Shown here in pieces: positions 12,319 through 38,077 of a DNA stretch of 38,077 bases (position 1 is the first letter of the stretch; each line of letters starts with the position of its first letter). The notes beneath the pieces were generated by a model. It was not told where the DNA came from. It saw only the letters and a program-made list of their open reading frames with translations, and ran no database searches. The DNA lies in contig JAHFFX010000002.1 of the NCBI GenBank assembly GCA_023247755.1, positions 1 through 38,077 of the forward strand. Direction: 5' to 3'. Made by a program: the position numbers and the translations under genes. This DNA is from Candidatus Omnitrophota bacterium. Its GTDB lineage: Bacteria; Omnitrophota; Gorgyraeia; Zapsychrales; JAHFFX01.

Positions 12319-12360
12319 CCGGGGGCGGGGGCCCCGGACTCCCGGGGCCCCCGCCCCCGG
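12319..12360. terminator. very stable G/C-only hairpin after malQ (no U-tract)
   Basis: CCGGGGGCGGGGGCCCCGG (12319-12337), ACTC, CCGGGGCCCCCGCCCCCGG (12342-12360). This is a perfect 19-bp stem with a 4-nt loop and no flanking T-run on either strand. Confidence 0.4.
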
Positions 12361-15975: not shown

Positions 15976-15988
15976 GGGGTGTTCGACC

Positions 15989-16033
15989 AGGGACAGCGCC
16001 CCGCCGGCCGGCGGGGCGCTGTCCCTGATTTTT
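15989..16033 (+). terminator. rho-independent terminator
   Basis: AGGGACAGCGCCCCGCCGG (15989-16007) pairs with CCGGCGGGGCGCTGTCCCT (16008-26). GATTTTT follows. Confidence 0.8.
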
Positions 16034-21882: not shown

Positions 21883-21910
21883 TTGACAAAGGGAGAGTCT
21901 GTAATAAAAT
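21883..21910 (+). promoter_or_regulatory. strong sigma70-like promoter ahead of the ligase-led gene block
   Basis: -35 TTGACA (21883-21888), then 16 nt, then -10 TAAAAT (21905-21910). AT-rich UP-like DNA including (TA)5 lies immediately upstream. Confidence 0.55.
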
Positions 21911-23593: not shown

Positions 23594-24358
23594 ATGCAAA
23601 ACAAGACCCAAAGAATGACCCGCCCGATCCACATGACCGGGCAGGACCTCACCGGCATGGTGCAGCTGCGCCCGACCGACATCGGCAAGTACGCGATCGT
23701 TCCGGGGCCCAAGGAGCGGCTGGACAATCTCGTCAAGAAGATGGAGAACCCTATCAAGAACTTCACTTTCATGGAATACAACATGTATACCGGAACTTAT
23801 CAGGGGATCAAGATCACCGGTGTCAACGGGGGGCGCTTCTCGGCGGACACCGCGATCACCACGGAACTCCTGTGCAGCGCCAAGGCGCAGAACATGATCC
23901 GCATCGGCAGTTGCGGCGCCCTTTCCGATGAGATCAACATCGGCGATATCGTCGTCGTCGATGGGGCGGTGCGCGGCGATGGCGTCACGCCATATTACGT
24001 CAATCAGGACTTCAAGACCGTCACCGATAAGAAGCTCACCGACATGGTCTTTGAGATCGCCGGCAAGACCGGGCACAAGGTTCACCGCGGCAAGGTGTGG
24101 ACCACGGACGCGATCCTGCGCGAGACCGACGAATACGTCAACGGCGCCATCGACCAGGGCGCGATCGCCGTGGACATGGTGTCGTCGGTGTTCTTGACGC
24201 TCTGCCAGCTTTATGAGATCCCGGCGACCGTGATCCTGGCGGTCTCCGATAACATCATCACCGGGGAGATGGGATTCCTTTCGCCGAATTATTACATGGC
24301 GGAGAGTTCTTTGGTCACGATCGCGCTGAATCTGGTGAAGAAGCTCGAAGGAAAGTAA
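23594..24358 (+). CDS. PNP/UDP-family nucleoside phosphorylase (uridine-phosphorylase-like; substrate unknown, possibly 5'-deoxyadenosine/MTA)
   Basis: IRIGSCGAL, GDIVVVDGAVRGDG and AVDMVSS are present, laid out like hexameric Udp/PNP enzymes. Confidence 0.8.
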   Translation: MQNKTQRMTRPIHMTGQDLTGMVQLRPTDIGKYAIVPGPKERLDNLVKKMENPIKNFTFMEYNMYTGTYQGIKITGVNGGRFSADTAITTELLCSAKAQNMIRIGSCGALSDEINIGDIVVVDGAVRGDGVTPYYVNQDFKTVTDKKLTDMVFEIAGKTGHKVHRGKVWTTDAILRETDEYVNGAIDQGAIAVDMVSSVFLTLCQLYEIPATVILAVSDNIITGEMGFLSPNYYMAESSLVTIALNLVKKLEGK

Positions 24359-24362
24359 ATAG

Positions 24363-24430
24363 GGTCACCCGTCACCAGTCACAGGTCACCACAAAATTAC
24401 TTGGTGACTTGTGACGTGTGACATGTGACT
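24363..24430. repeat. heptad-periodic inverted repeat element E1
   Basis: GTCAC occurs at 24364, 24371, 24378 and 24385. GTGAC occurs at 24404, 24411, 24418 and 24425. The arms pair as 14 bp + 5 bp + 6 bp, separated by 2x2 mismatches, around a 10-nt loop (24392-24401). Confidence 0.85.
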
Positions 24431-24451
24431 ATGTAGATTTAATGGTGAAAA

Positions 24452-25426
24452 ATGAAAGAATCCCCGCTTTTCTGGCCCGCGCAATTCAAAGGGAACGTGC
24501 TTCACGTTCTCGATGAGACGCAGGTCCCGGAGAAATTACATTATGTGAAGGTCCGCAACGTCAAGGAAGCGGTGAAGGTCATCCGGAACATGAAGACCCG
24601 GGCCTTCGGGCAGTTCCTGGTCGTGCTGAGCACCTTTCTTTTGGTGTTGAAGAACTCGAAGGTTCGCACCCCGACGGCGCTGCTTTCCGAACTGGAACAA
24701 ACGGCGGAAGCGCTCAACACGAGCCGCCCCACGTTCCCTTTCCGGGAAGTGACGTCGATCGTGGTCGCCTGGGCGAAGGACGCGATCCAAAAGAACATCG
24801 AGCTGCGTCCGTTCCTTGAGAAGAACATCCAGGGTTATTTGATGGGGATCCGTCAGCGGCGCCTGCAGCGGGTCAACGAGATCGCGGAGCTTTTGCGGGA
24901 CGGCGACCGCGTCCTCACGCATTGCAACGTGAGCGGCGAGCTTGCCATGGCCTCGCAGATCGCGCGCGAGCAGCGCAAGTTCGTGCAGTTCTTCGCGACC
25001 GAAACGCGCCCTTATTTTCAAGGGGCGAAACTGACCTGCTGGGAATTGCAGAAGGCCGGCACGCCGGTGACCCTGATCGCCGATAACGCCGTGGGGACCG
25101 TCCTCGCGGACGGATTGGTGGATAAGGTGATCGTTGGGTCCGACCGCTCCTGCGCCAACGGCGACATCGCCAACAAGATCGGGACCTATCAGATCGCGGT
25201 GCTGGCGAAGGAATTCGGGACACCTTTTTACGTTCTTACCCAGCCGTCCAACAAGATCCCGCGGGGGGAAGACATCCCCATCGAGGTCCGCAATCCCGAA
25301 GAGCTTTTGACGTTCGGGAAAAAGCGGATCGTCGCGGGCAAAGTGAACGCCTTCTATCCCGGCTTCGATGTGACGCCGAAGGAATTGATCGAAAGGGAGA
25401 TCGCCATCAATGCACAATCTCGTTAA
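24452..25426 (+). CDS. eIF-2B alpha/beta/delta-family sugar-phosphate isomerase (MtnA-like, divergent)
   Basis: LTHCNVSG (catalytic Cys context), ETRPYFQGAKLTCWEL, VIVGSDRSCANGDIANKIGTY and FYVLTQ are present. The N-terminal region diverges from canonical MtnA (MKTRAFGQF instead of M.VRGAPAIG). Confidence 0.8.
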   Translation: MKESPLFWPAQFKGNVLHVLDETQVPEKLHYVKVRNVKEAVKVIRNMKTRAFGQFLVVLSTFLLVLKNSKVRTPTALLSELEQTAEALNTSRPTFPFREVTSIVVAWAKDAIQKNIELRPFLEKNIQGYLMGIRQRRLQRVNEIAELLRDGDRVLTHCNVSGELAMASQIAREQRKFVQFFATETRPYFQGAKLTCWELQKAGTPVTLIADNAVGTVLADGLVDKVIVGSDRSCANGDIANKIGTYQIAVLAKEFGTPFYVLTQPSNKIPRGEDIPIEVRNPEELLTFGKKRIVAGKVNAFYPGFDVTPKELIEREIAINAQSR

Positions 25427-25925
25427 GCCGGTCGTCATCGTTCAGGGAGTGGTGGAGGCCCGGCTCTTTGATGAATTAAAGGGAAAAGGGGTTACGGAAG
25501 TTTATGTCCTGGAAGGCCGTCCCACGCTCGAGGCGGCGCGGCGCGCCAGCGCGGAGCTTCTTAAGCGCGGCATGACGCCGACGCTCATTTCGGACAACAT
25601 GGCCGGCGTGCTTTTTTACAAGAATCTGGTGAAGGAAGTCTGGATCGCTTTCCAATACGCCGATGAGGAAGGAGCGGCCTGTGACATCGGCGCGCTCATC
25701 CTGGGCGTTCTGGGAAAGCGGCACGGCGTTCCCGTGCGGCTATTTCCGTCGGCGCGGAAAACGAATTTCCTGGGCCGTTCGCAGGACCTCCTCAGTTTCC
25801 TTTCGAAACGCATCGCCCCCAAGGGCGTGGAGGCGTTCGTGCCCCTGGTGGAATGGGTGCCGGCGAAATATATTTCCGCAGTTCCGAAACCCCTGGCCGA
25901 AGATCTGCAGGACGCTCACGTATGA
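25410..25925 (+). CDS. stand-alone half-length eIF-2B/MtnA-like protein (C-terminal Rossmann-like domain only, catalytic motifs absent)
   Basis: The ATG lies 10 nt after AAGGGAG (25393-25399) and overlaps the upstream gene by 17 nt. VYVLEGRPTLEAARRASAELLKRGMTPTLISDNMAG...GALILGVLGKRHGVPV parallels the ETRP...G.P.TLI.D.A...NKIGTY...A..H..P segment. Confidence 0.6.
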   Translation: MHNLVKPVVIVQGVVEARLFDELKGKGVTEVYVLEGRPTLEAARRASAELLKRGMTPTLISDNMAGVLFYKNLVKEVWIAFQYADEEGAACDIGALILGVLGKRHGVPVRLFPSARKTNFLGRSQDLLSFLSKRIAPKGVEAFVPLVEWVPAKYISAVPKPLAEDLQDAHV

Positions 25926-26950
25926 ATGAAGGAATCGCAAAATTAAAGACCGACATCATTGCCATCGGGCGCCTTTTGTGGGACAAGGACCTGGCGAGCG
26001 GGCTTAACGGCAATTTAAGCGCCCGGGTGAGCAACGACGAGATCCTTTTGACCGCGACCCACACCTGCCTGGGGCTGCTGAAGGACAACGACATTTTGCA
26101 TATGAAGCTGGATGGAACGCTTCTTGAGAAGGGAAGCGTATCCACCGAGAAACTTCTGCACACTGAGATCTACAAGAACTTTCCGGACGTGAGCGCGGTC
26201 GTCCATACCCACACGACCTTCACCAACGCTTATTTCCTGGCGAACGACAAGTTCTCCCCGACCACCTATGAAGCGAAATTCTACATCGGGGAAGTGCAGG
26301 GGATCCCCCAGAAAACGCCGTCGGTGACCGACGCGGGGCCGGTCGTTGAGGAACTGAAGCGCAACAGCATCACCGTCCTTAAGAATCACGGGGTCGTCGC
26401 GATGGGCAAGGACCTGTTCGATGGTTTCCTGCTGATCCAGCAGCTTGAGGAATCGATCAAGGTGGACGCGATCAGCCGGTTGTACCAGGTGAATGCCTCG
26501 GGTGCCCAGCGCCCAGCGCCCAGCGTGCAGCCCGCAATGCATAGCGCTCAACCGTCTTCCTTCGGGAACGGGAAGAAATTCAAGCTGTTTTCAAAGGAGC
26601 AGATCGAAGAGATCGTGCGAATCGTGAACGCCGATGCGCAACTGAAGGAATTGGGCGAGAAGACCAAGATGACGATGGACCTGGCGGTGCAGCTCAACGA
26701 AACGGGGGAGACCTACAGTTTCAGTTTCCAGAACGGCCGCATCGCCAAGATCGGCAACGATACCCAGGCGGAATTCCTGATCACTGCTCCTGAAACGGTC
26801 TGGCGCGCGGTGTTCAACCGCCAGATCGATCCGTTCGTCGCGACGACGCAAAAGAAGATGAACCTGCGCGGGGATTTCGCGAAGATTTCGAAATGGTATT
26901 CGCCCTGCAGCCGCATCTTTGAACTTTGGGCCCAGGTGCCGGTGGAATAA
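25922..26950 (+). CDS. class II aldolase/adducin-family protein (MtnB/FucA/Ald2-like) fused to a C-terminal SCP2 sterol-carrier-like domain
   Basis: There is an ATGA overlap with the upstream stop. GLNGNLSARV, STEKLLHTEIY, VVHTHT and LKNHGVVAMG (Zn His ligand positions) are present. A linker ...GAQRPAPSVQPAMHSAQPSSFGNGKK is followed by ~105 aa that read SCP2-like (...DLAVQLNETGETYSFSFQNG...KKMNLRGDFAKISKW). Confidence 0.75.
   Translation: MNEGIAKLKTDIIAIGRLLWDKDLASGLNGNLSARVSNDEILLTATHTCLGLLKDNDILHMKLDGTLLEKGSVSTEKLLHTEIYKNFPDVSAVVHTHTTFTNAYFLANDKFSPTTYEAKFYIGEVQGIPQKTPSVTDAGPVVEELKRNSITVLKNHGVVAMGKDLFDGFLLIQQLEESIKVDAISRLYQVNASGAQRPAPSVQPAMHSAQPSSFGNGKKFKLFSKEQIEEIVRIVNADAQLKELGEKTKMTMDLAVQLNETGETYSFSFQNGRIAKIGNDTQAEFLITAPETVWRAVFNRQIDPFVATTQKKMNLRGDFAKISKWYSPCSRIFELWAQVPVE
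26504..26531 (+). repeat. tandem heptanucleotide repeat (GCCCAGC)x3 + GTGCAGC inside the aldolase-SCP2 linker
   Basis: The units start at 26504, 26511, 26518 and 26525, as read directly from the sequence. Confidence 0.9.
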
Positions 26951-28449
26951 TGCCAACGACCGTTAACATCGAAGAATACCGGATGCTCATCGATGGCCGG
27001 CTAACGCCGGCCCGGGAGCGACGCTCGTTCGAGAGCGTGAATCCTTCCACGGGGGACGTGTTCGCCAGGGTCTCCGATGCCGCAATCGAGGATGTCCAGG
27101 CAGCCATCGCGGCGGCGCGCCGCGCGTTCGACGAAGGGCGCTGGCCGGGTCTCACCTTGGCCCAGCGCGGGAAATTTCTCAAGACGATCGCCGATCTTAT
27201 CCGTGAGAACGCCAAGGAATTGGCCGAGCTCGAGACCTTGAGCACCGGAAAAACGCTCAAGCAGACGACCTTCATCGATGTGCCGACCTGCGCCGATACG
27301 TTTGAATATTTTGGAAGTATTCCCGATCTTTTAAGATCAAGGGAAAACCCGGTGAACGCGCCGGTCAAGAGCCTGACCGAACGCGAGCCGCGCGGGGTGG
27401 TGGCCTGTATCATTCCCTGGAACTATCCTTTGATCATGGCGGCCTGGAAGCTGGCGCCGGCGCTGGCCGCCGGGAATACCGTTATCCTGAAACCTTCGCG
27501 TTTGGGGAGCGTTTCGATCCTCAAGCTCGCGTCCCTTATAGAGAAAGCCGGGTTGCCGGCGGGCGTGGTGAATGTGGTCGCGACGACGCAGGAAGCTGCG
27601 GCCACGGCCCTGGTCAAAAGCCCGCAGGTCGACATGGTGAGCTTCACCGGCGGCACCGCTACCGGCCAGAAGATCATGGCCTGGGCGGCGGAGACGACGA
27701 AGAAGGTCTCGCTCGAGCTCGGGGGCAAATCCCCGAACCTCGTTTTCGCGGATTGCGATTTTGAGGCGGCGTTGGGGGGAACGATGTCGGCCATCTTCAT
27801 GAACCAGGGACAGATGTGCACGGCGGGGGCGCGGCTCTTGCTGGAAGACAAGATCTACGACCGCTTCCTCGAAGAACTGGTCAAGCGGACCAAGGCGCTT
27901 AAGATCGGCAACGCGTTCAACCATGAGACCGAATTCGGCCCGCTGGTGAGCCTTGAACAGCGCAACGGTGTTCTCAAGTTTATAGAGAAGGGCAAGTCGG
28001 AGGGGGCGAAAATTGCGACCGGCGGGCGAATTCCGCCGGGGGCGGAATTCGCCCGGGGGGCGTTCCTCGAACCCACCATCTTTACCGACGTTCGTCCGGA
28101 GATGTTCATCGCCCAAGAAGAGGCGTTCGGCCCGGTCCTTGCCGTATTCAAGTTCTCCGGTGAAGAAGAAGCCGTGCGGCTCGCCAACGATTCAAAGTAC
28201 GGGCTCGCCGCCTGCGTCTGGACCAAAGATGAAGAGAAGGCCCGAAGAATTTCGAAAAAACTGCAGTGCGGCACGGTTTGGGTGAACACCTATGGAGGGT
28301 TCTACAACGAGGCGTCCTTCGGCGGCACCAAGCAGAGCGGTTTCGGCCGCGAGCTCGGTATCGAGGGACTTTTAGAATATACACAGACGAAGCATGTTTG
28401 TATCGACCGCACGCCCGGGGGGAAACCCCTGGCCGCGGCCTGGTTCTGA
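26950..28449 (+). CDS. NAD(P)+-dependent aldehyde dehydrogenase
   Basis: The ATG overlaps the upstream TAA (TAATG). WNYPL, ELGGKSP, FMNQGQMCTAGARL (catalytic Cys) and EEAFGPV are present. Confidence 0.93.
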   Translation: MPTTVNIEEYRMLIDGRLTPARERRSFESVNPSTGDVFARVSDAAIEDVQAAIAAARRAFDEGRWPGLTLAQRGKFLKTIADLIRENAKELAELETLSTGKTLKQTTFIDVPTCADTFEYFGSIPDLLRSRENPVNAPVKSLTEREPRGVVACIIPWNYPLIMAAWKLAPALAAGNTVILKPSRLGSVSILKLASLIEKAGLPAGVVNVVATTQEAAATALVKSPQVDMVSFTGGTATGQKIMAWAAETTKKVSLELGGKSPNLVFADCDFEAALGGTMSAIFMNQGQMCTAGARLLLEDKIYDRFLEELVKRTKALKIGNAFNHETEFGPLVSLEQRNGVLKFIEKGKSEGAKIATGGRIPPGAEFARGAFLEPTIFTDVRPEMFIAQEEAFGPVLAVFKFSGEEEAVRLANDSKYGLAACVWTKDEEKARRISKKLQCGTVWVNTYGGFYNEASFGGTKQSGFGRELGIEGLLEYTQTKHVCIDRTPGGKPLAAAWF

Positions 28450-28544
28450 CTGGACGGCCCTAACAAGGCCGGGATCTTTTTGCTGACGCAAGGGATCAAA
28501 CAAGTGAAGACAATCCGATCCACCATAAAAAGGAGAATCGAAAA

Positions 28545-30026
28545 ATGAAAATACTATTCTTAACGCCACCGTTAAAAGCCTGGGATTCGCACGGGTTCCA
28601 CCGCGCCGCCAACCAAATGCACGCGCAGGTCGCCGCCTACGTCCGTTCCAAGGGCCTCGCGACGATCGAAGCGCTCGACTGCCGGGCGATGGACTACGAC
28701 TGGAACACCATGATGCAGAAGATCGACGAGAGCAAGCCCGACATGGTGTTTCTGGGCGATCAGCTGTTCTCGACGCTGGGGGCGGCGGTCATCTGGTATT
28801 TCAACGAAGCGATGCGGATGATCAAGGAGAAGTACCCGAACATCATCACGGTGGCCTCGGGACTGTGGTATTCCGCCGATTACGAGCGGCAGATGCGCTT
28901 GAATCCGTTCATCGATTACATCCTCATCGGCGAAGGGGAACTGACACTTGAGGACCTCCTGACCAACCTCAAGACCAAGGCCAAGAACGAACGGGATATT
29001 CCGGGTCTCGTTTCCCGCCGGGACAAGACGTCGATCGTGATCGGTCCCCACCGCGGGCTTATTCCGGACCTCAACGTTCTTCCCATGCCGGCCTACGAAC
29101 TCTTTCCGATGGAAAAATATGTCGGGCACACCTATTGGAAACCGTTCGCGGAACTGATGACCTCGCGCGGCTGCCCCGGCAAATGCCATTTCTGCTACGA
29201 GTGGGCGCTGTATGACAACCGCACCGCGACCCAGGATTTCACCTCCTGGAGAGGATTGTCCGGCAAACGGATCGTGGATGAACTCGATCTTCTGGAAAAA
29301 AAGTACGGCATCACCTGCGTGGTCATGCAGGATGACGCTTTCAACAGCGACACCAAGGCCATGATCGAATTCTGCGAAGAAAAGATCAAAAGAGGCAACC
29401 AGATCGGGTGGGTCTGCCTTGGCCGCGCCGATCAGTGGATCGCCCAGCAGGATATCCTTCCCCTGATGAGAAAGGCCGGACTTTTCATGGCCCTTACCGG
29501 CGTCGAGGTCGAGGACGATAAGACGCTTACCAAAACGGGGAAAGGGGTCACGATCGACCAGATCAAGCAGACCATCAACCTTCTGCGGGCCCAGGACATC
29601 GGGACCGTCGGCACGGTCCTGATCGGTTTGCGGGAGGACAACGAGGAAAAGATCAAGAAGCGCCTCGAGACCGCCGATGAGATCGACCCCGATGTTTTTG
29701 CGCTGGATTATCTCACGCCGGTCCCCAATTCGCCGGACTGGCGCTATGGGATCCAAAAGGGATGGTTCGATCCGGATAAGATCAATCTCAAGGACTGGGA
29801 CTTCCAGCATCCGGTCATCCCGACGGACAATCTGACCGTTGAGGAAGTGGGCCGCCTGGGCGCGTGGTGCATGCGGGAGTATTATTCGAAGCCGGAGCGC
29901 ATTCACCGCATCATGGAAAGCAATTACGACATCCGGGTCAAACAGTGCGTCATGGACTTCATGAACAACATCTCCAAATGGGAGAAGAACTCCCGCACGC
30001 CGGCTGCCACCGGGGCGGCGGTTTAA
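28545..30026 (+). CDS. B12-binding-domain radical SAM enzyme (class B)
   Basis: The N-terminal flavodoxin-like cobalamin-binding region is MKILFLTPP...PDMVFLG. The CxxxCxxC cluster motif reads TSRGCPGKCHFCYE. Confidence 0.88.
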   Translation: MKILFLTPPLKAWDSHGFHRAANQMHAQVAAYVRSKGLATIEALDCRAMDYDWNTMMQKIDESKPDMVFLGDQLFSTLGAAVIWYFNEAMRMIKEKYPNIITVASGLWYSADYERQMRLNPFIDYILIGEGELTLEDLLTNLKTKAKNERDIPGLVSRRDKTSIVIGPHRGLIPDLNVLPMPAYELFPMEKYVGHTYWKPFAELMTSRGCPGKCHFCYEWALYDNRTATQDFTSWRGLSGKRIVDELDLLEKKYGITCVVMQDDAFNSDTKAMIEFCEEKIKRGNQIGWVCLGRADQWIAQQDILPLMRKAGLFMALTGVEVEDDKTLTKTGKGVTIDQIKQTINLLRAQDIGTVGTVLIGLREDNEEKIKKRLETADEIDPDVFALDYLTPVPNSPDWRYGIQKGWFDPDKINLKDWDFQHPVIPTDNLTVEEVGRLGAWCMREYYSKPERIHRIMESNYDIRVKQCVMDFMNNISKWEKNSRTPAATGAAV

Positions 30027-30027
30027 T

Positions 30028-30099
30028 CGTCGCTCGGGGCACGTGACTCGTGATCCGTCCGAGTATTGGCGGGTCACGGTCCACGTGTCACGGAACACA
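30028..30099. repeat. heptad-periodic inverted repeat element E2
   Basis: The left register has CGTC, CGGG, CGTG, CGTG, CGTC at 30028, 30035, 30042, 30049 and 30056. The right register has CACG, CACG, CACG, CACA at 30075, 30082, 30089 and 30096. The arms pair imperfectly (6 + 4 + 4 bp). Confidence 0.7.
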
Positions 30100-30115
30100 C
30101 AAAGGAACTACGAGA

Positions 30116-30397
30116 ATGAACCCAGCTCAAACACATCCCAGGCTCGCCTGGGAACCATCCGCCCAGGAGCGTTATAAATTGATGATCGCGAAGATCCCGC
30201 TCTTCCACCGCGAGATCGCCAAGATCGTCGTCGATAAGAAAGCCGAATTGAACGCCATCGACCGGGGGGCCTCCCGGGTGGAAGAACCCGACATCGTGCG
30301 CGCGTTCCTCACGGAAGTGCCCGTCGCTTTTTACGGTCTCATGGTCCGTCTTTTGGATGAAGTGGGCTTTGAGCATCGGAAGTACGAAACCAAGTAA
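30116..30397 (+). CDS. small PCP_red-like protein (protochlorophyllide reductase subunit B C-terminal-domain family)
   Basis: I chose the internal ATG at 30116 because the longer ORF-track N-terminus runs through E2. AWEPSAQERYKLMIAKIPLFHREIAKIVVDKKAELNAIDRGASRVEEPDIVRAF fits W.P.A...L..IP.F.R......E..A...G...V. Confidence 0.6.
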   Translation: MNPAQTHPRLAWEPSAQERYKLMIAKIPLFHREIAKIVVDKKAELNAIDRGASRVEEPDIVRAFLTEVPVAFYGLMVRLLDEVGFEHRKYETK

Positions 30398-30450
30398 GAA
30401 CTATGCGCGGATGCGTCGTATTGGATCACGTAGATCGGGAATCACATACC

Positions 30451-30915
30451 ATGGAAAAAACCAATCATCATTTTGTTTTCATCGAGGCCCCGGTGGACAT
30501 CGTGGGCCCGCAGATCATTGCCTGGGGGGAGGCTTCCTGGTGGCCCGAAGGTTCCCAAATGCGTTTTAATAAGACCACCTCCGGGGAATTGGGGATCGGC
30601 ACGGAATATGAGATGCGGATCAAGGCCCCGTTCGTGTCACCCTTGTCCTGCCGGGTCACGAAACTGGACCCCGCCCGGGAGATCGAACGCACGTTCCTCA
30701 CCGGTATGTTCAAGGGGCGCGAGATTGTCAGCGCCGAGGAACGGTATAACGGAACGAAAGTGAAATATACCATGTATTACCAGGTCCAAGGAATCCTTAA
30801 CGCGATCTTGTGGCCGATCCTCTTTCGTCGTTTGCACGATGCGAACATCGAGCTGATCATGGCGGCCCTCAAGCGATATTGCGAACAAAAGGCCAATCCT
30901 CCGGAGGGGACATGA
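30451..30915 (+). CDS. SRPBCC-superfamily protein (polyketide cyclase/dehydrase-like START fold)
   Basis: It starts at the ATG at 30451 (MEKTNHHFVFIEAPVDIV...). Length and pattern (I.AP...V, W.P, G.G, GT.V.Y...) are typical of Polyketide_cyc2-type proteins. Confidence 0.6.
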   Translation: MEKTNHHFVFIEAPVDIVGPQIIAWGEASWWPEGSQMRFNKTTSGELGIGTEYEMRIKAPFVSPLSCRVTKLDPAREIERTFLTGMFKGREIVSAEERYNGTKVKYTMYYQVQGILNAILWPILFRRLHDANIELIMAALKRYCEQKANPPEGT

Positions 30916-31925
30916 ACATCGCGGTCATCGGCGCGGGGGCGATCGGCTCGGTCGTAGCCAGCTATCTGACGAAGGCGGGAGTGTCGGTCACCCTCATCGG
31001 CCGGCCGGACCAGGTCACGGCGATCCGCAAGAGCGGTCTGCATGTGATGGGTGTGCGGGGGGAGGAAACGTTCCAGTTCCCCGCCCTGATGAAACTGGAC
31101 AAGGCCTATGATGTCGTTATCTTTACCGTCAAGACTCAGGACCTCGAATCGGCCTATCTGGAGAACCAGGACCATCTGGAGTCGGGGTTCATCCTTACCA
31201 CGCAGAATGGCGTTCAGGCCGATAATGTCCTCAGCAGCCACTTCGAGCGGGATAAATTGATCAGCAGCATCGTGATGTTCGGGGCGACCTACGTGCGCCC
31301 CGGGGAAGTGACCTTCAATTTTGAGGGCGACTGGATCATCGGCAAACCCTATTTTCCCAACGATCCCTTCGTGCATGAGCTGGCGGGAGTCCTGCAAAAA
31401 GCTTTCAAGGTCAACGTCTCCAATGACATCATGGGAATGAAATGGCTCAAGCTCTTCATCAATTTCAACAACTGTATCCCGGCGCTGCTGGGAAAGTCCA
31501 TGCAGGAGACGTTCGCGGACCTGGACTTTTGCCGCCTGAGCATGCTGCTTCTTAAGGAAGGCATCGAGGTGACGCGCAAGGCGGGGGTGAAGCTGGTTTC
31601 GCTGCCGCAGTTCCCGGTGGAGCGCATCGATGGACTTTCGGCGATGCCCGTTGAGCAGGGGGCGGCGATCGTCAATAAGACCCTGACGGGGTTGAGCAAG
31701 GAGCCGCTGTACGGTTCCATCCTGCAGAGCATCATGAGAAAGAAGACCAGCGAGATCGATTTCATCAACGGGGAAGTGGCCCACCTGGCGCAGGCGATGG
31801 GTCTGTCGGCGCCCCTCAACCGCAAGATCGTGGACCTCGTGCACGAGGTGGAGCGGGAGGGGAAGTTCTTCTCGCGGGATGAAGTGAAGAGGAAATTTAG
31901 TTTGAGTTCGCCTGGTGACCGGTGA
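30912..31925 (+). CDS. ApbA/PanE-family NAD(P)H-dependent 2-oxoacid/ketone reductase (ketopantoate-reductase-like)
   Basis: There is an ATGA overlap with the SRPBCC stop. MNIAVIGAGAIGSVVASYL, VKTQDL and EIDFINGEVAHLAQAMGLSAPLN are present. Confidence 0.85.
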   Translation: MNIAVIGAGAIGSVVASYLTKAGVSVTLIGRPDQVTAIRKSGLHVMGVRGEETFQFPALMKLDKAYDVVIFTVKTQDLESAYLENQDHLESGFILTTQNGVQADNVLSSHFERDKLISSIVMFGATYVRPGEVTFNFEGDWIIGKPYFPNDPFVHELAGVLQKAFKVNVSNDIMGMKWLKLFINFNNCIPALLGKSMQETFADLDFCRLSMLLLKEGIEVTRKAGVKLVSLPQFPVERIDGLSAMPVEQGAAIVNKTLTGLSKEPLYGSILQSIMRKKTSEIDFINGEVAHLAQAMGLSAPLNRKIVDLVHEVEREGKFFSRDEVKRKFSLSSPGDR

Positions 31926-31998
31926 CCAGTCACAAGTCACCAGGGGTTTCCCTGCAATTCAATTAACCGGTAACCGGTGACGTGGTCACTGGTCACAT
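31911..31998. repeat. heptad element E3 (two adjacent self-complementary arrays), overlapping the 3' end of the reductase gene
   Basis: Array a has GTGAC, GTGAC, GTCAC, GTCAC at 31915, 31922, 31929 and 31936, within CCTGGTGAC...GTCACCAGG. Array b has GTAAC, GTGAC, GTCAC, GTCAC at 31970, 31977, 31985 and 31992. Confidence 0.8.
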
Positions 31999-32014
31999 AT
32001 AAGGAAATCAAGCA

Positions 32015-33277
32015 ATGAAAACCAAACGACGCGTCGTAGTGACCGGGGTCGGCATCGTTTCCCCCAACGGGGTCGGGGCCGAGGCCTGCTACCGCAATAT
32101 GATCAACGGTGTGTCCGCCGTCAAAAGGGTGACCGAGTTCGACGTGTCGCTTTTTAACACCAAGATCGCGGCCCAGGTGCGGGATTTCGATCCATGGAAG
32201 CTGGGCCTCACCAGCGAAGAGATCGTGCGCATGGACCGCTACGTCCAGTTCGCGATGGTCGCCGCGCGCATGGCGATCGAGGATTCCAGATTGAACTTAA
32301 GCCAGGTGGACCGGGAGCGCACGGGCGTTTCGCTCGCCAACGCCATCTGCGGCACCAAATATATGGAAGAGGAGTTCGCGCTGGTGACCGACAGCGGCAA
32401 GAACCCGATCGACCCTTCGATCGTGCGTCCGGACCTGTATGATGCCTCCATGTTCAACACGCCCTCGAGCGAGATCTCGGCCAAGTACGGTCTGCTGGGA
32501 GTTTGCAATACGATCTCCACGGGCTGCACCGCCGGGACCGATTCCGTCGGGTTTTCCTATGAAGCCATTGCGGATGGGGAAGCTGATATCATGGTGACCG
32601 GAGCGGCAGAGGCGCCCATCACGCCGATCACCTTTGGCGCTTTCGATACCGTGAACGTCCTGTCGGTGCACAACGAATTTCCGGAAAAGGCTTCAAGGCC
32701 TTTCGACGCCCGTCGTAACGGGTTCGTGATTTCCGAGGGCGCAGGAATTATAGTGGTAGAAGAGCTCAATCACGCCCTCAAGCGCGGCGCCAGGATCTAT
32801 TGCGAAGTGACCGGCTTCGGCACGACGAATAATGCCTTTCACATGACCGACCTGCCCCCCGATGGGGACGCGATGGCGGATTGCATCAACCTTGCCATGC
32901 GGGATGCGGACCTCAAGCCCAGTGAACTCGATTACGTCAACGCGCACGGCTCTTCCACCCGCCAGAACGATGTGTTCGAGACCAGCGCCTACAAGATGGC
33001 GCTGGGAGAATACGCCTACAAGATCCCGATCAGTTCGGTGAAATCCATGATCGGGCATCCGCTGGCCGGGGCGAACGGCATCGAGATCGCTTTAAGCTCG
33101 ATGATCTTTGAGCGCAATATCTTGCCGCCAACGATCAACCAGGAAGAGAAGGACCCCCAATGCGATCTGGATTACATCCCCAACACGGCGCGGGAGAAGA
33201 AGGTGAATTCGATCCTCAAGACGAGCTCGGGATTCTCGGGGATTCATTCGGCTATGGTTTTAGAACGATTTAAATGA
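32015..33277 (+). CDS. beta-ketoacyl synthase, type II PKS KS-alpha-like
   Basis: AAGGAAA precedes the ATG. The active-site context ISTGCTAGTDSVG (Cys codon 32525-32527) resembles the PKS KS-alpha motif STGCTSGLD more than FabF. NAHGSST and SMIGHPLAGANG supply the two catalytic His residues. Confidence 0.88.
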   Translation: MKTKRRVVVTGVGIVSPNGVGAEACYRNMINGVSAVKRVTEFDVSLFNTKIAAQVRDFDPWKLGLTSEEIVRMDRYVQFAMVAARMAIEDSRLNLSQVDRERTGVSLANAICGTKYMEEEFALVTDSGKNPIDPSIVRPDLYDASMFNTPSSEISAKYGLLGVCNTISTGCTAGTDSVGFSYEAIADGEADIMVTGAAEAPITPITFGAFDTVNVLSVHNEFPEKASRPFDARRNGFVISEGAGIIVVEELNHALKRGARIYCEVTGFGTTNNAFHMTDLPPDGDAMADCINLAMRDADLKPSELDYVNAHGSSTRQNDVFETSAYKMALGEYAYKIPISSVKSMIGHPLAGANGIEIALSSMIFERNILPPTINQEEKDPQCDLDYIPNTAREKKVNSILKTSSGFSGIHSAMVLERFK

Positions 33278-33282
33278 TCATT

Positions 33283-33346
33283 GGTGATTCGTGCCTCGTG
33301 GCACGTCAACAAATCACGTGTCACGAGGCACGGAGCACGATACACA
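33283..33346. repeat. heptad-periodic inverted repeat element E4
   Basis: GGTG, CGTG, CGTG, CGTC occur at 33283, 33290, 33297 and 33304. CAC occurs at 33315, 33322, 33329, 33336 and 33343. The 17-bp stem 33290-33306/33316-33332 has a single G-T (G-U) pair and a 9-nt loop. Confidence 0.85.
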
Positions 33347-33365
33347 AATCAGGATTGGAGAAGTT

Positions 33366-34598
33366 ATGGAAAAGATCGCAATAACCGGGCTCGGCATCGT
33401 CAGCCCCAGCGGCATGGACAAACGCTCATTCTGGGCGAACCTGAAGGCGGGTCATTCCAAGGTTGAGAAGATCGAGCGCTTCGATGCCTCCCAATACCCT
33501 TCCCGCATCGCCGGCCATGTTCACGATCTGGACGCCTACAGCAACGTTTCCTCGCGGCTGCTTAAGAAGATCGACGTTTTCTCACACATGGCGCTGGTGG
33601 CTTCGGAGCTGGCGATCCAGGATGCCGCCATCGATATGGCGAAGGAGGATCTTAAGCGTGTGGGGATCTTCATGGGGAACGCCATCGGCGGCTGGCTGTA
33701 CGCCGAGACCGAGCTGCGCGATATGTATCTGGAAGGCCGGGAGGGCGTGAGCCCCTTCATGGCCTCGGCCTGGTTTCCCGCGGCCCCGCAAGGACAGGTT
33801 TCGATCCATTACGGGATCAAGGGCTACAGCAAGACGATCGTTTCCGACCGCGCTTCATCCTTGATGGCGATCGCCTATGCGGCCAAAAATCTTGAGCGGA
33901 ATAACAACGATCTGATCCTCGCCGGCGGCATGGAAGCGCCGGTCACTCCGTACGCGCTTTTGTGCTGCAATACTTCCGGGGTGCTTACGAAGCGCAACGA
34001 TGAGGCGGAAACCGCCTATCGCCCTTTTGACAAGACCCGCGACGGGATGGCGATCGCGGAAGGGGCGGGAATTCTGACCCTGGAGACCGGGGAGCGCGCC
34101 GGCAAGCGCAAGGCCCACGCTTATGGATATATCACCGGTTTCGGCACGACGACCGACGGGGTGGACCGCATCGAACCGGCCGCCGACGGCAAACAGCTTG
34201 CCCGCGCCATCCGCATGGCGCTGGATGACGCGAAGCTCGATCCCAAGGACATCGACTATATTTGCGCCGACGGCGCCGGAACGGTCATCGGCGATATCTC
34301 GGAGACGAAAGCGATCAAGCAGGTCTTTAACGGCAATGCCCAAAAGATCCCCGTCTCCGCCCCAAAATCGATGTTCGGGAATCTGCTGGGGGCGTCGGGC
34401 GCGCTCGATGTGATCCTGACACTGTTGTCCATGGAACATTCGACCGTTCTGCCCACGATCAATTATCTTAAGGCCGATCCGGAGTGCGATCTGGATTATT
34501 GTCCCAACAAGGCGCAGGCGAAAGAAATAAGGAACGCTTTGGTCATTAACCGCGGCCGGGGCGGGATCAACGCCGTCCTGGTGCTACAAAAGAATTAA
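33366..34598 (+). CDS. KS-beta / chain-length-factor-like ketosynthase paralogue lacking the Cys-His-His triad
   Basis: The ATG at 33366 follows GGAG (33357-60); the ORF-track start at 33291 lies in E4. Aligned to the upstream KS, Cys becomes Arg (TIVSDRASS, codon 33849-33851), the first His becomes Asp (CADGAGT) and the second His becomes Asn (KSMFGNLLGASG). Confidence 0.85.
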   Translation: MEKIAITGLGIVSPSGMDKRSFWANLKAGHSKVEKIERFDASQYPSRIAGHVHDLDAYSNVSSRLLKKIDVFSHMALVASELAIQDAAIDMAKEDLKRVGIFMGNAIGGWLYAETELRDMYLEGREGVSPFMASAWFPAAPQGQVSIHYGIKGYSKTIVSDRASSLMAIAYAAKNLERNNNDLILAGGMEAPVTPYALLCCNTSGVLTKRNDEAETAYRPFDKTRDGMAIAEGAGILTLETGERAGKRKAHAYGYITGFGTTTDGVDRIEPAADGKQLARAIRMALDDAKLDPKDIDYICADGAGTVIGDISETKAIKQVFNGNAQKIPVSAPKSMFGNLLGASGALDVILTLLSMEHSTVLPTINYLKADPECDLDYCPNKAQAKEIRNALVINRGRGGINAVLVLQKN

Positions 34599-34659
34599 AA
34601 AGCGTCCCTTAACCCTGCAAGGGGAAAGGGACGCCGTTCTCGTGTTGCAGAAAAGTTAG
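34599..34659 (+). repeat. degenerate tandem copy of the last ~60 nt of the KS-beta gene (non-coding relic)
   Basis: 34632-34659 (cgccgttctcgtgttgcagaaaagttag, reading A V L V L Q K S *) matches 34571-34598 (cgccgtcctggtgctacaaaagaattaa, reading A V L V L Q K N *). TTAACC at 34609 corresponds to 34546. The region contains the hairpin GCGTCCCTT (34602-10) / AAGGGACGC (34626-34). Confidence 0.7.
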
Positions 34660-34665
34660 CTAAGG

Positions 34666-34707
34666 GTCGACAGCCCACTGTCGTCGGTCGACCGTGGTCC
34701 ATGGACT
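34666..34707. repeat. heptad-periodic element E5 (variant motif)
   Basis: GTCGAC-a, GCCCAC-t, GTCGTC-g, GTCGAC-c, GTGGTC-c, ATGGAC-t start at 34666, 34673, 34680, 34687, 34694 and 34701. It contains the small hairpin CGACAG ccca CTGTCG and the palindrome GTCCATGGAC. Confidence 0.6.
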
Positions 34708-34738
34708 CAATGAGAATCAAACCATAGGAGGTTTACTC

Positions 34739-34996
34739 GTGTCAACAGACCAACAGACCACCACCATCGAACAACGCATCAAAGCGATCTTCAACAAGGT
34801 CCTCGATATCGCTCCGGAAGAGGTCAAGCCCGATGACAAGCTCGACGCGTCGCTCGGCATCGACTCCACGGAAATGGTGGAGATCTCGGTGGGATTAAAG
34901 AAGGAGTTCGGCGTGCCGATCGCGGATAATGAGATCAAGAAGACGCACACGTTCAATGAGATCGTTGGGATCCTGAGAACCAAGGGCGCCCGGTAA
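34739..34996 (+). CDS. acyl carrier protein
   Basis: GTG at 34739 lies 7 nt after AGGAGG (34726-31). The phosphopantetheine site is in LGIDSTEMVEISVGLKKEFGV. Confidence 0.85.
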   Translation: MSTDQQTTTIEQRIKAIFNKVLDIAPEEVKPDDKLDASLGIDSTEMVEISVGLKKEFGVPIADNEIKKTHTFNEIVGILRTKGAR

Positions 34997-38067: not shown

Positions 38068-38069
38068 TT

Positions 38070-38077
38070 CGTGACTC
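38070..38077. repeat. probable start of another heptad element, cut by the window edge
   Basis: CGTGACTC lies directly after the last stop codon and is identical to the start of the E2 left arm (aCGTGACTCGTGATC). Confidence 0.3.

What the first reader, a model, noticed from the sequence alone, without database searches (positions are those of the whole stretch)
24363..34707. Family of 7-nt-periodic inverted-repeat elements occupying the intercistronic gaps of the block
Five gaps contain arrays in which a 4-5-nt core recurs every 7 nt and faces its complement. The gaps are phosphorylase|isomerase, rSAM|PCP_red, reductase|KS-alpha, KS-alpha|KS-beta and KS-beta|ACP. The core is GTCAC/GTGAC, or more generally CGTG on one arm and CACG on the other.

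The cores are conserved, but the 2-3 nt between them vary and often do not pair. That suggests selection on the periodic motif itself and not only on a hairpin.

E2, E3 and E4 end the same way:
- E2: ..AACACACAAAGGAAC
- E3: ..GGTCACATATAAGGA
- E4: ..ATACACAAATCAGGA

In each case the last CACA heptad runs into an A-rich spacer and the next gene's Shine-Dalgarno sequence.

No such element occurs in the intergenic regions of the first 24 kb, but another starts at 38070.

Possible roles are intercistronic RNA processing or stability elements, binding arrays for an RNA- or DNA-binding protein, or a REP-like genomic repeat. Heptanucleotide STRR repeats of heterocystous cyanobacteria are a precedent for 7-nt intergenic repeats. 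I cannot tell whether these are related.
Basis: seen in the sequence. Interest (0 to 1): 0.7.

Follow-up and report, generated by a model that had tools for sequence, protein, structure and literature searches.

The report
Seven-base-repeat hairpins between operon genes
Five gaps between genes of one operon in an uncultivated Omnitrophota bacterium hold hairpins whose two arms are short arrays of a 7-base unit; this is a hairpin-shaped version of the long-known but unexplained bacterial seven-base repeats, not a conserved regulator.

Summary
All five intercistronic gaps contain a segment with significant 7-nt periodicity, arranged as two facing arrays that fold into strong hairpins. No other gap in the window does.

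The window comes from a Candidatus Omnitrophota genome. The elements lie inside one operon and match no Rfam family, terminator or promoter.

They are not conserved regulators. In about 60 orthologous operons the same junctions are empty, hold an ordinary hairpin, or hold a 7-nt-periodic hairpin built from a different heptad.

In 940 kb of Omnitrophota DNA chosen by protein, not by repeat content, period 7 dominates tandem arrays: 66 arrays, against 11 or fewer at any other period. Of the 66, 53 face an inverted partner.

The arms pair through the heptad consensus (83% complementary). Positions that depart from it do not covary (31%).

Best reading: these are hairpin-form heptanucleotide simple-sequence repeats (STRR/LSSR class). 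They grow and turn over by 7-nt slippage in permissive gaps, and are transcribed as intercistronic stem-loops that probably affect mRNA processing or stability. That function is inferred, not shown.

Two features are unexplained: an excess of TGAC/CTGA-type cores, and an 18:0 bias in arm order.

The parts
21883..21910 (+). Best sigma-70-like promoter upstream of the operon (TTGACA-16-TAAAAT). It places E1-E5 inside one transcription unit.
   Evidence: 11 of 12 matches. No promoter-like site on the + strand lies in any element gap (one weak minus-strand match, 30091-30062, falls in E2), and terminator-like sites are no more frequent than in shuffles. A similar TTGACA...TAAAAT sequence is visible at the same place in L005.
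24363..24434 (+). E1, between the phosphorylase and the IF-2B-family isomerase-like gene. Left arm GGTCACC CGTCACC AGTCACA GGTCACC, an 11-12 nt loop, right arm GGTGACT TGTGACG TGTGACA TGTGACT. The 5-nt cores pair; 5 of 6 spacer positions do not.
   Evidence: TRF period 7, both arms.. (lag-7 self-match 0.55, p 0.0002). (-39.7 kcal/mol, z -5.4).
30036..30105 (+). E2, between the B12-radical-SAM gene and a small ORF with a sub-threshold DUF2621 match. Left heptads GTGACTC GTGATCC; right heptads GGGTCAC GGTCCAC GTGTCAC GGAACAC. It runs into AAAGGAAC, the ribosome-binding site.
   Evidence: 0.46, p 0.0002. (hairpin 30038-30089, -36.8 kcal/mol, z -2.6).
31911..31999 (+). E3, between the ApbA-type reductase and KS-alpha. 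Tight palindrome GGTGACC GGTGACC / AGTCACA AGTCACC, a small central hairpin, then GGTAACC GGTGAC GTGGTCAC TGGTCAC. The reductase stop codon (31923-31925) lies inside the array.
   Evidence: 0.47, p 0.0002. (I15: arms 31911-31926 and 31929-31944, 88% complementary). (-43.3 kcal/mol, z -4.0).
33284..33349 (+). E4, between KS-alpha and KS-beta. Left heptads TGATTCG TGCCTCG TGGCACG; right heptads CGTGTCA CGAGGCA CGGAGCA CGATACA CAAATCA. The hairpin spans 33284-33338. It may descend from the TGTGTCA-type hairpins in the same gap in L001, L131 and L175.
   Evidence: 0.55, p 0.0002. (I3: 23-nt arms, 87% complementary). (-38.8 kcal/mol, z -5.1). for the relatives.
34661..34712 (+). E5b, the periodic part of the KS-beta|ACP gap. 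Degenerate heptads around GTCGAC. Predicted hairpin about 34664-34708.
   Evidence: 0.49, p 0.0002. (I9)..
34602..34634 (+). E5a, a non-periodic hairpin GCGTCCCTTAACCCTGCAAGGGGAAAGGGACGC in the same gap. It is not a member of the heptad class. It is shared only with the closest relative and is flanked by two copies of the KS-beta 3' end.
   Evidence: lag 7 not significant, p 0.15.. (present in L001 only).
38068..38077 (+). TTCGTGACTC at the window edge. Possible start of a further element; cannot be verified.
   Evidence: (the only other contig ends 20 nt after the gene).

Best explanation
E1-E5b are hairpin-form heptanucleotide simple-sequence repeats. Each has two facing arrays of 3-5 degenerate copies of a 7-nt unit. 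In this genome the unit is nGTCACn or its complement, decaying to nnnCACn.

They belong to the broad, poorly understood class of bacterial heptanucleotide repeats (cyanobacterial STRRs, long SSRs). In Omnitrophota this class is the dominant tandem repeat and usually occurs as an inverted pair.

**Origin (inferred).** They are not conserved regulatory RNAs and not copies of a transposed master element. They arise, grow, shrink and are replaced within permissive gaps, and sometimes run over the upstream stop codon. The likely process is gain and loss of whole 7-nt units by strand slippage on both arms of a small palindrome. This keeps each arm close to its own consensus, so the arms stay complementary without base-by-base compensation.

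**Effect (inferred, not shown).** They sit inside one transcription unit and are copied into the polycistronic mRNA. There they fold into imperfect stems of roughly 20-30 bp, between the upstream stop codon and the still-exposed downstream ribosome-binding site. The most likely effect is that of an intercistronic stem-loop: a barrier to 3' exonucleases and/or a substrate for a double-strand RNase such as RNase III. This would set the relative stability of neighbouring cistrons, and the strength could drift with repeat number.
For: **Shown**
- Periodicity and folds.
- Organism and operon context.
- No Rfam family.
- The exact elements are absent from relatives at 80-92% KS-alpha identity.
- The junction upstream of KS-alpha is heptad-periodic in 11 of 61 non-redundant lineages (0.29 expected from shuffles; 0-2 lineages at any other lag). 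At least seven different heptads are involved. The KS-alpha|KS-beta junction is periodic in 5 of 60 lineages, and many lineages have no gap there at all.
- In 940 kb of protein-anchored Omnitrophota DNA, arrays of at least 3 copies number 66 at period 7, 11 at period 8, 6 at period 9 and 5 at period 6. Of the 66, 53 have an inverted partner within 90 nt.
- Most elements are intergenic, mainly between co-directional genes.
- Consensus positions are complementary 83% of the time, variant positions 31%.
- Heptads are diverse: 67 distinct among 95 arrays, with several types per 20 kb.
- Arrays read into the 3' end of the upstream ORF in the window and in L127, L128 and L130.

**From the literature**
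- Heptanucleotide repeats are the most abundant 5-11-nt long SSRs in most prokaryotic genomes. Polymerase slippage was proposed as the cause (Mrazek 2007, as reported in PMC4679880 and PMC4692102).
- A transcribed (ATCTTTC)n heptanucleotide repeat in Haemophilus influenzae forms a long 5'-UTR hairpin that RNase III processes. This changes expression, and RNase III is also needed for changes in repeat number (PMC12721329).
Against: - No direct evidence of slippage. The only near-identical contig pairs available carried identical arrays (5 comparisons, 0 differences).
- No sign of selection at the RNA level. Sense and antisense folds are equally stable (39 vs 30 elements, p 0.11) and G-U pairs are equally frequent (10.7% vs 10.1%).
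- Random in-situ growth does not predict three observations. (a) TGA/TCA-containing heptads are in excess: 40 of 95 against 23.4 expected, while TAA and TAG are not; CTGA, GTCA, AGTC and ACTG are each about 3-4-fold enriched. (b) All 18 TCAG/CTGA hairpins have the TCAG array 5' of the CTGA array, a property that does not change with strand. (c) The same heptad recurs weakly within a genome (p 0.045).
- Many lineages have no gap at these junctions, so any function is dispensable.
Confidence: 0.55

Rival explanations
1. The elements are binding arrays for a trans-acting protein that reads a 4-5-nt core at 7-nt phase on RNA or single-stranded or double-stranded DNA (in the manner of TRAP or HutP, or cold-shock, S1 or CsrA proteins). 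Selection on the binding motif keeps the cores, and the hairpin is secondary.
For: - Cores are conserved while spacers vary and do not covary.
- TGAC/CTGA/AGTC-type cores are about 3-4-fold enriched. They resemble heptads reported from other phyla: TAACTGA (PMC4679880) and MTYCTGA (PMC2700814).
- Arm order is 18:0 for TCAG/CTGA hairpins and 20:2 for GTGAC/GTCAC hairpins.
- Authors studying Beggiatoaceae and Nostoc also propose an unidentified binding protein (PMC4679880; bioRxiv 10.1101/2022.06.06.494920).
Against: - 67 distinct heptads among 95 arrays, with up to six unrelated heptads within about 20 kb of one genome.
- The same junction carries unrelated heptads in sister lineages.
- Both arm orders occur in this window: E1 against E2-E4.
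- No candidate binding protein is encoded in the window.
Confidence: 0.15
2. The elements are REP- or MITE-like mobile palindromes. A transposase such as a RAYT or IS200/IS605-type enzyme spreads genome-specific families of hairpins into extragenic sites.
For: - They occupy the same niche as REP elements: extragenic, transcribed, hairpin-forming.
- Some heptads recur at several loci of one genome: four TCAG-type hairpins in L153, two GTTGCTC in L161, two AAGTCAC in L196, and nGTCACn throughout this window.
- Arm order is consistent within a heptad type.
- The closest relative, L001, holds a true REP-like family in the equivalent gaps.
Against: - Copies share only the heptad. Loops, arm lengths and flanks differ.
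- No near-identical full-length copies and no target-site duplications were seen.
- No transposase or RAYT domain was found in the window.
- Within-genome similarity is weak: 11% of pairs within one mismatch, against 5% between genomes.
Confidence: 0.12
3. The elements are purely neutral mutational debris. Slippage-prone palindromes accumulate wherever a gap tolerates them and have no effect on expression.
For: - Many lineages lack any gap at the same junctions.
- Turnover is fast.
- No strand asymmetry and no covariation.
- Arrays spill into ORF ends.
Against: - A stable stem (predicted -37 to -43 kcal/mol) in an mRNA is unlikely to be inert. A heptanucleotide-repeat hairpin has a demonstrated effect in H. 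influenzae (PMC12721329), and reporter effects are described in Nostoc (bioRxiv 10.1101/2022.06.06.494920).
- When a gap exists at these junctions it is usually filled by some hairpin, and the ribosome-binding site is always left free.
Confidence: 0.3
4. The elements are conserved operon-specific regulatory RNAs (attenuators, riboswitch-like leaders) or intrinsic terminators.
For: They sit between cistrons and fold strongly.
Against: - No U-tract follows any of them, and terminator-like sites are no more frequent than in shuffles.
- No Rfam match.
- The sequences are not conserved in orthologous operons.
- No covariation.
Confidence: 0.03

Closest known systems
Cyanobacterial STRR heptanucleotide repeats, and the general class of heptanucleotide long simple-sequence repeats (Mrazek et al. 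2007, as summarised in PMC4679880 and PMC4692102; the STRR unit sequences are from my own memory of Mazel et al. 1990)
   Same: Seven-nt unit, short tandem arrays, mostly intergenic, lineage-variable, function unknown. GTCAC-type heptad arrays occur in Scytonema, Anabaena, Microcoleus and Spirulina. The units share a CAGT/GTCA/CTGA flavour.
   Different: STRRs and long SSRs are defined as direct tandem arrays, often long and perfect. Here the arrays are short (3-5 units), degenerate in 2-3 positions, and 53 of 66 face an inverted partner to form a hairpin. The organism is Omnitrophota, not a heterocystous cyanobacterium.
TAACTGA intergenic repeats of marine Beggiatoaceae (PMC4679880)
   Same: Heptamer with a CTGA core, 2-6 copies, intergenic, placed just upstream of start codons. 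Related variant heptamers are interspersed.
   Different: In that genome there are 169 direct sets and only one inverted set. One heptamer dominates the genome, and the repeats replace the Shine-Dalgarno region. Here the arrays are inverted pairs of many heptad types, and a normal ribosome-binding site follows.
Haemophilus influenzae hmw1A (ATCTTTC)n 5'-UTR repeat hairpin processed by RNase III (PMC12721329)
   Same: A transcribed heptanucleotide repeat forms one arm of a long RNA hairpin upstream of a coding region. It is the only case with a demonstrated mechanism: RNase III processing changes expression, and repeat number tunes it.
   Different: Only the left arm there is a repeat; the right arm is a G-rich region. 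It is a single contingency locus in a host-adapted pathogen, not a dispersed class. RNase III action has not been tested here.
REP/BIME extragenic palindromes of enterobacteria (established knowledge)
   Same: Imperfect palindromes in transcribed extragenic and intercistronic sites. They are known to stabilise upstream mRNA segments, and they vary between species.
   Different: REPs have one conserved consensus of about 35 nt per family, no internal 7-nt periodicity, and an associated RAYT transposase. None of these three features was found here.
Geobacter metallireducens multicopy elements made of 4-5 tandem heptanucleotides (GGACCGG; MTYCTGA) (PMC2700814)
   Same: Four to five heptads per element, dozens of copies, intergenic and intragenic. 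One class has a CTGA core and is drawn as strand-switching pairs.
   Different: Those were annotated as putative global-regulator sites or RNA elements with one consensus per class. They have no comparative or structural analysis.

Membership tests
Heptanucleotide simple-sequence repeats (STRR / long SSR class) | Head-to-tail repeats of a 7-nt unit, at least about 3 copies | tested here: met
   TRF finds period 7 with 4.0 and 4.3 copies in E1. Lag-7 self-match is 0.46-0.55, p 0.0002, in E1-E5b.
Heptanucleotide simple-sequence repeats (STRR / long SSR class) | Predominantly extragenic location | tested here: met
   All five lie in intercistronic gaps. Most of the 70 elements in relatives are intergenic.
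Heptanucleotide simple-sequence repeats (STRR / long SSR class) | Many copies dispersed over the genome | tested here: inconclusive
   Only 38 kb of this genome is available: five elements in 14 kb and none in the other 24 kb. Relatives have 1-7 elements per 20 kb or less.
Heptanucleotide simple-sequence repeats (STRR / long SSR class) | Copy number varies by slippage between strains | tested here: inconclusive
   Five near-identical contig pairs all had identical arrays, which is too few and too similar to decide.
Cyanobacterial STRR sensu stricto | Heterocystous cyanobacterial host and the STRR1-3 unit sequences | tested here: not met
   The host is Candidatus Omnitrophota and the unit is nGTCACn. 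Similar GTCAC arrays do occur in cyanobacteria.
REP/BIME elements | One conserved palindromic consensus shared by all copies in a genome | tested here: not met
   Copies share only the heptad; loops and flanks differ. Relatives carry several heptad types per 20 kb.
REP/BIME elements | Associated RAYT (Y1 transposase) gene | tested here: inconclusive
   No transposase domain was found among 38 ORFs of the window. The rest of the genome was not seen.
MITEs | Terminal inverted repeats, target-site duplication and near-identical dispersed copies | tested here: not met
   No direct duplications were seen on inspecting the flanks, and no systematic search for them was run. No near-identical copies occur in the window or in any locus (for the window; one search compared loci).
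Intrinsic terminators | G+C-rich stem followed by a U-tract | tested here: not met
   No terminator-like site lies at any element, and the total count equals that of shuffles.
Any curated RNA family (Rfam 15) | Score at or above the gathering threshold | tested here: not met
   No hits at the gathering threshold. The only hit below E = 1 is a chance match to the miRNA family mir-587, 22.9 bits against a threshold of 80.
hmw-type repeat hairpin processed by RNase III | Transcribed heptanucleotide repeat forming a long hairpin upstream of a coding region | tested here: met
   Predicted only. The elements lie inside the operon downstream of the promoter at 21883, and their folds have z-scores of -2.6 to -5.4.
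hmw-type repeat hairpin processed by RNase III | Cleavage by RNase III that alters expression | not testable with these tools
   This needs transcript-end mapping or an in-vitro cleavage assay.

The most novel reading that the evidence does not exclude
Heptad-periodic hairpins may be a distinct class of intercistronic element spanning several phyla, not mere slippage debris.

Three features would point to a conserved machinery that makes or reads them: the shared preference for (A)GTCA(C/G) and CTGA cores, the strict strand-independent arm order (18:0 and 20:2), and cores held at 7-nt phase while spacers drift. Candidates are transcription- and RNase III-coupled repeat expansion, as in H. influenzae hmw, or a periodic nucleic-acid binder.

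The elements would then act as hypermutable rheostats that set the stoichiometry of operon products. That would also give a handle on the decades-old question of why bacteria favour 7-nt repeats.
Probability: 0.2. Interest if true: 0.7.

Novelty: new variant of a known kind. Interest (0 to 1): 0.5.

Why it matters
Heptanucleotide repeats have been known in bacteria since 1990 and were shown in 2007 to be the favoured long repeat unit. Neither the reason for the number seven nor a general function is known.

This operon offers a natural experiment. In dozens of Omnitrophota lineages the same gene junctions are either sealed or filled by 7-nt-periodic hairpins built from different units. That separates what is constant (period, hairpin form, a free ribosome-binding site, core-versus-spacer pattern, arm order) from what is free (the sequence).

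If the hairpins tune mRNA processing, they would be a common and evolvable means of setting gene ratios within operons of uncultivated bacteria. If they are inert, they mark a strong mutational bias. They may also complicate genome assembly and gene-end annotation, since arrays overwrite stop codons.

Tried and rejected
1. **Rfam.** No match at gathering thresholds over the whole window, or at E up to 1 over 24300-34800.
2. **Promoter and terminator scans.** Nothing on the + strand at the elements; one weak minus-strand promoter-like match (30091-30062) lies in E2.
3. **Pattern scan of 185,579 species genomes** for GTCACNN x4. I first compared this with a chance expectation of about 1. The control in viral contigs showed that the same core at period 6 (at least 120 loci, 101 of them in long open frames), period 7 (at least 120) and period 8 (94) is common in all cases. 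A random-sequence null is therefore invalid for tandem repeats, and the capped scan cannot show that 7 is special. The period preference rests instead on the protein-anchored TRF census and on the unselected arrays in the scan loci: 149 at period 7, against 19 or fewer at any other period.
4. **Strand-asymmetry test for RNA-level selection.** Not significant for fold energy or for G-U content.
5. **Repeat-number polymorphism** between near-identical contigs. Only five comparisons, all identical.
6. **Three-frame stop-codon idea.** I asked whether heptads are favoured because they supply stops in all three frames. Only TGA is enriched, not TAA or TAG, so the idea is not supported as stated.
7. 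**Single within-genome family.** Only weakly supported.
8. **Extending the window to the right** to check the element at 38068.
9. **Primary papers.** Mazel 1990 and Mrazek 2007 are not held, so their content is cited second-hand or from memory.
10. **A literature search on 'STRR'** was swamped by unrelated hits.

Full report
**1. What the window is**

All long ORFs run on the + strand. Pfam assigns the block from 22024 onward as follows:
- an AMP-ligase
- a PNP/UDP-type phosphorylase
- an IF-2B-family (MtnA-like) protein plus a fragment of one
- a class II aldolase
- an aldehyde dehydrogenase
- a B12-binding radical-SAM enzyme
- two small ORFs
- an ApbA-type reductase
- two ketosynthases, an acyl carrier protein and a cyclase
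- PspC and membrane proteins

The KS-alpha protein has hundreds of homologues at 80-92% identity. Those that carry a name are from Candidatus Omnitrophota. The same gene order recurs in all relatives fetched.

The best sigma-70-like promoter lies at 21883-21910, upstream of the first gene. No promoter-like site on the + strand lies in any internal gap, and terminator-like sites do not exceed chance. The gaps in question are therefore intercistronic spacers of one operon.

An independent ENA contig encoding the same proteins has identical gap lengths. The elements are therefore not an artefact of this assembly.

**2. The observation**

- E1 is the cleanest: GGTCACC CGTCACC AGTCACA GGTCACC, a loop, then GGTGACT TGTGACG TGTGACA TGTGACT.
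- TRF calls both arms at period 7.
- GTCAC or GTGAC with a partner exactly 7 nt away occurs only in E1 and E3, never at 6 or 8 nt.
- Of 22 gaps of at least 25 nt, four (E1-E4) show a strong lag-7-specific self-match (z 3.0-6.0). The E5 gap taken whole is weaker (z 2.2, p 0.018). The remaining 17 are flat, apart from a G+C-rich palindrome that scores at every lag.
- On the element coordinates the lag-7 self-match is 0.46-0.55 with p = 0.0002. It remains significant after correcting for nine lags.
- The E5 gap splits into a non-periodic hairpin (34602-34634) and a periodic one (34661-34712).
- All elements fold well below their shuffles.

Stacked in sevens, every element in this window shows the same degenerate unit, nGTCACn or its complement.

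The common endings of E2-E4 are the last decayed heptad followed by an A-rich stretch and an AGGA Shine-Dalgarno sequence. Unrelated hairpins in other lineages end the same way.

**3. Not a conserved regulator**

I fetched orthologous operons through KS-alpha: three sets by exact-protein look-up and 80 loci from JGI metagenomes.

None carries the window's sequences. The closest relative (92% identity) has a 44-nt gap where E3 sits, and a different REP-like family in other gaps. A more distant relative (80%) has abutting or overlapping genes at most junctions.

The class, however, recurs. Upstream of KS-alpha, different lineages carry hairpins built from different heptads:

| Heptad pair | Loci |
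|---|---|
| xxxTCAG / CTGAxxx | L127, L128, L130, L152, L197 |
| AGAGGTA / TACCTCT | L131 |
| GATGCTC / GAGTATC | L144, L155 |
| GTTGCTN / GAGCAAC | L161 |
| GGACGAN / CGTCCAT | L191 |
| AAGTAAG / TTTTGAN | L172 |

Between KS-alpha and KS-beta there are types built on TCAG, CAGTGNN, AGGATTT, AGAAGNN and TGTGTCA.

Quantitatively, 11 of 61 non-redundant lineages have a strongly lag-7-periodic 35-nt stretch upstream of KS-alpha. Shuffles give 0.29, and other lags give 0-2 lineages. For the downstream gap the figure is 5 of 60. Other lineages hold plain G+C-rich hairpins or have no gap.

E4 may be an exception to complete turnover. The window, L001, L131 and L175 all have TG-N5 / N5-CA-phased hairpins at the KS-alpha|KS-beta junction. 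This could be one old element drifting with base composition; the window is 56% G+C against 43-48% in relatives.

**4. A dominant repeat class in the phylum**

TRF was run on 75 non-redundant loci, 940 kb in total, chosen by protein and not by repeat content. Arrays of at least three copies:

| Period | Arrays |
|---|---|
| 7 | 66 |
| 8 | 11 |
| 9 | 6 |
| 6 | 5 |
| any other | 2 or fewer |

- Of the 66 heptad arrays, 53 have an inverted partner within 90 nt.
- By a crude ORF model, the 70 merged elements fall as follows: 37 between co-directional genes, 10 between convergent genes, 5 between divergent genes, and 15 flagged as possibly coding. Several of the last group are miscalls or one conserved coding motif.
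- Arrays sometimes overrun the upstream stop codon. In the window the reductase ends at a TGA inside the second GGTGACC. In L127, L128 and L130 the left arm is translated as a C-terminal tail.

**5. How the arms relate**

In 24 hairpins aligned without gaps, positions carrying the heptad consensus are complementary 83% of the time (498 of 599). Positions that depart from the consensus are complementary only 31% of the time (21 of 67).

The arms pair because each is an array of a unit complementary to the other arm's unit, not because individual pairs are maintained. It argues against both a recently duplicated whole arm and classical RNA covariation.

There is no asymmetry between sense and antisense in fold energy (39 against 30 elements, p 0.11) or in G-U content. 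Nothing therefore points specifically to selection on the transcript.

**6. Sequence content**

Among 95 arrays there are 67 distinct heptads, and single genomes carry up to six types within 20 kb. This makes one sequence-specific binder or one REP-like master unlikely.

Three regularities are nonetheless not explained by random slippage.
- **Core bias.** CTGA, GTCA, AGTC and ACTG are each about 3-4-fold more frequent in the cyclic heptads than in composition-matched shuffles. TGA/TCA-containing units number 40 of 95 against 23.4 expected, while TAA and TAG are not enriched. The same flavour marks heptads reported elsewhere: TAACTGA in Beggiatoaceae (PMC4679880), MTYCTGA in Geobacter (PMC2700814), and, from my memory, the cyanobacterial STRR units.
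- **Arm order.** All 18 TCAG/CTGA hairpins in the Omnitrophota loci have the TCAG array 5' of the CTGA array. Among GTSAC hairpins from other phyla the ratio is 20:2 the other way. An inverted repeat reads the same on both strands, so this bias cannot come from gene orientation. Some of these hairpins may share ancestry, so they are not all independent events.
- **Recurrence within a genome.** Identical or near-identical heptads recur slightly more often within a genome than between genomes: 11% against 5% of pairs (p 0.045).

**7. Wider distribution, with a caveat**

Hits came from Acidobacteriota (many in Pyrinomonadaceae, typically GTGACnn x4, a loop, then nnGTCAC x4), cyanobacteria, Planctomycetota, Verrucomicrobiota, Chloroflexota, Bacteroidota, Cloacimonadota, Dialister and two Omnitrophota.

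In those loci the arrays that were not selected for are again mostly period 7: 149, against 19 or fewer at any other period, and 78 of the 149 have an inverted partner.

The cap prevents counting. A control in viral contigs showed that the same core at periods 6 and 8 is also common. Period 6 is mostly coding; 17% of period-8 arrays and 21% of period-7 arrays have inverted partners. The scan therefore shows breadth, not a special status for the number seven.

**8. What is known**

- Heptanucleotide repeats were found to be the most abundant long SSRs with 5-11-nt units in most prokaryotic genomes. A polymerase-footprint slippage explanation was offered (Mrazek 2007, as reported in PMC4679880 and PMC4692102). 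PMC4692102 notes that no detailed literature on them existed in 2015.
- In Beggiatoaceae, TAACTGA repeats sit just upstream of start codons, almost always as direct arrays: 169 direct sets against one inverted (PMC4679880).
- Nostoc has TTTTGAA/TTCAAAA arrays with effects on reporters and an unidentified presumed binding protein (bioRxiv 10.1101/2022.06.06.494920).
- The one worked-out mechanism is in Haemophilus influenzae. A transcribed (ATCTTTC)n array forms a long 5'-UTR hairpin that RNase III cleaves. [quoted passage not shown]
- I found no paper describing inverted heptad arrays as a class, or any repeats of this kind in Omnitrophota.

**9. Conclusion**

The finding is real. It is best filed as a hairpin-form variant of heptanucleotide simple-sequence repeats.
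- **Shown:** the periodicity, the fold, the intra-operon position, the lack of conservation, the recurrence of the class at the same junctions with other units, the dominance of period 7 with inverted partners in the phylum, and the absence of covariation.
- **Inferred:** origin and turnover by 7-nt slippage, and action as an intercistronic stem-loop affecting mRNA decay or RNase III processing.
- **Unexplained:** the core bias and the arm-order bias. These keep a more interesting reading open.

Noticed in passing
window 34570-34659; L001 about 12560-12650: The non-periodic hairpin E5a is flanked by two copies of the KS-beta 3' end. ACGCCGTCCTGGTGCTACAAAAGAATTAA encodes AVLVLQKN*; ACGCCGTTCTCGTGTTGCAGAAAAGTTAG would read AVLVLQKS*. 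They are 21 of 29 identical, most differences are synonymous, and they lie 61 nt apart and out of frame. The closest relative has the same arrangement. It looks like an insertion that duplicated or regenerated the gene end.
   Followed up: partly
L001 gaps at 2176-2354, 6478-6662, 12571-12704, 14153-14597; ORF 12704-12946: The closest relative carries a true REP-like dispersed family (..ACAACTTACGGA..CGTAAGTTGTAAGG.GAATTTATCCCGC..) in at least four gaps of the same operon. It also has a free-standing 80-aa GIY-YIG ORF inserted between KS-beta and ACP. L005 has a similar small GIY-YIG ORF elsewhere in the operon.
   Followed up: no
window 12319-12360 and 15988-16027: Two perfect G+C-rich palindromes (19-nt and 20-nt arms) sit in intergenic gaps of the first 24 kb. 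They are ordinary hairpins without 7-nt periodicity.
   Followed up: no
window 28002-28062: A 17-nt tandem and partly palindromic repeat, GGGGGCGGAATTCCGCC x3.3, lies inside the aldehyde dehydrogenase ORF.
   Followed up: no
whole window compared with L001-L006: The window is 56% G+C, whereas the orthologous operons of relatives are 43-48%. The heptads here are correspondingly G+C-richer than the TGTGTCA/TCAG types of relatives.
   Followed up: no
Omnitrophota loci L127-L206 and scan loci L007-L126: Arm order is fixed by heptad type. All 18 TCAG/CTGA hairpins are TCAG-first. GTGAC-first outnumbers GTCAC-first by 20 to 2, mostly in Acidobacteriota. This property does not depend on strand, and I have no explanation for it.
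   Followed up: partly
L129 4022-4048, L130 2418-2446; L104: Some heptad arrays have the unit of the plant-type telomere repeat (AGGGTTT, i.e. TTTAGGG, in L129 and L130) or a similar one (CCCTAAT in a Cloacimonadota contig). This is probably coincidence.
   Followed up: no
L195 and L172 KS-alpha|KS-beta gap; L196 upstream gap: Some arrays are built from Shine-Dalgarno-like units, for example TAAGGATTTAAGGATTTGAGGATTTAAGGATTT. It looks as if the ribosome-binding region itself had been multiplied in 7-nt steps.
   Followed up: no
window 28450-28544 and the orthologous gaps in L003 and L005: The aldehyde dehydrogenase|radical-SAM gap keeps a similar length (95-103 nt) across distant relatives. 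It is A+T-rich and unstructured, with no heptads. It may hold an internal promoter or leader.
   Followed up: no
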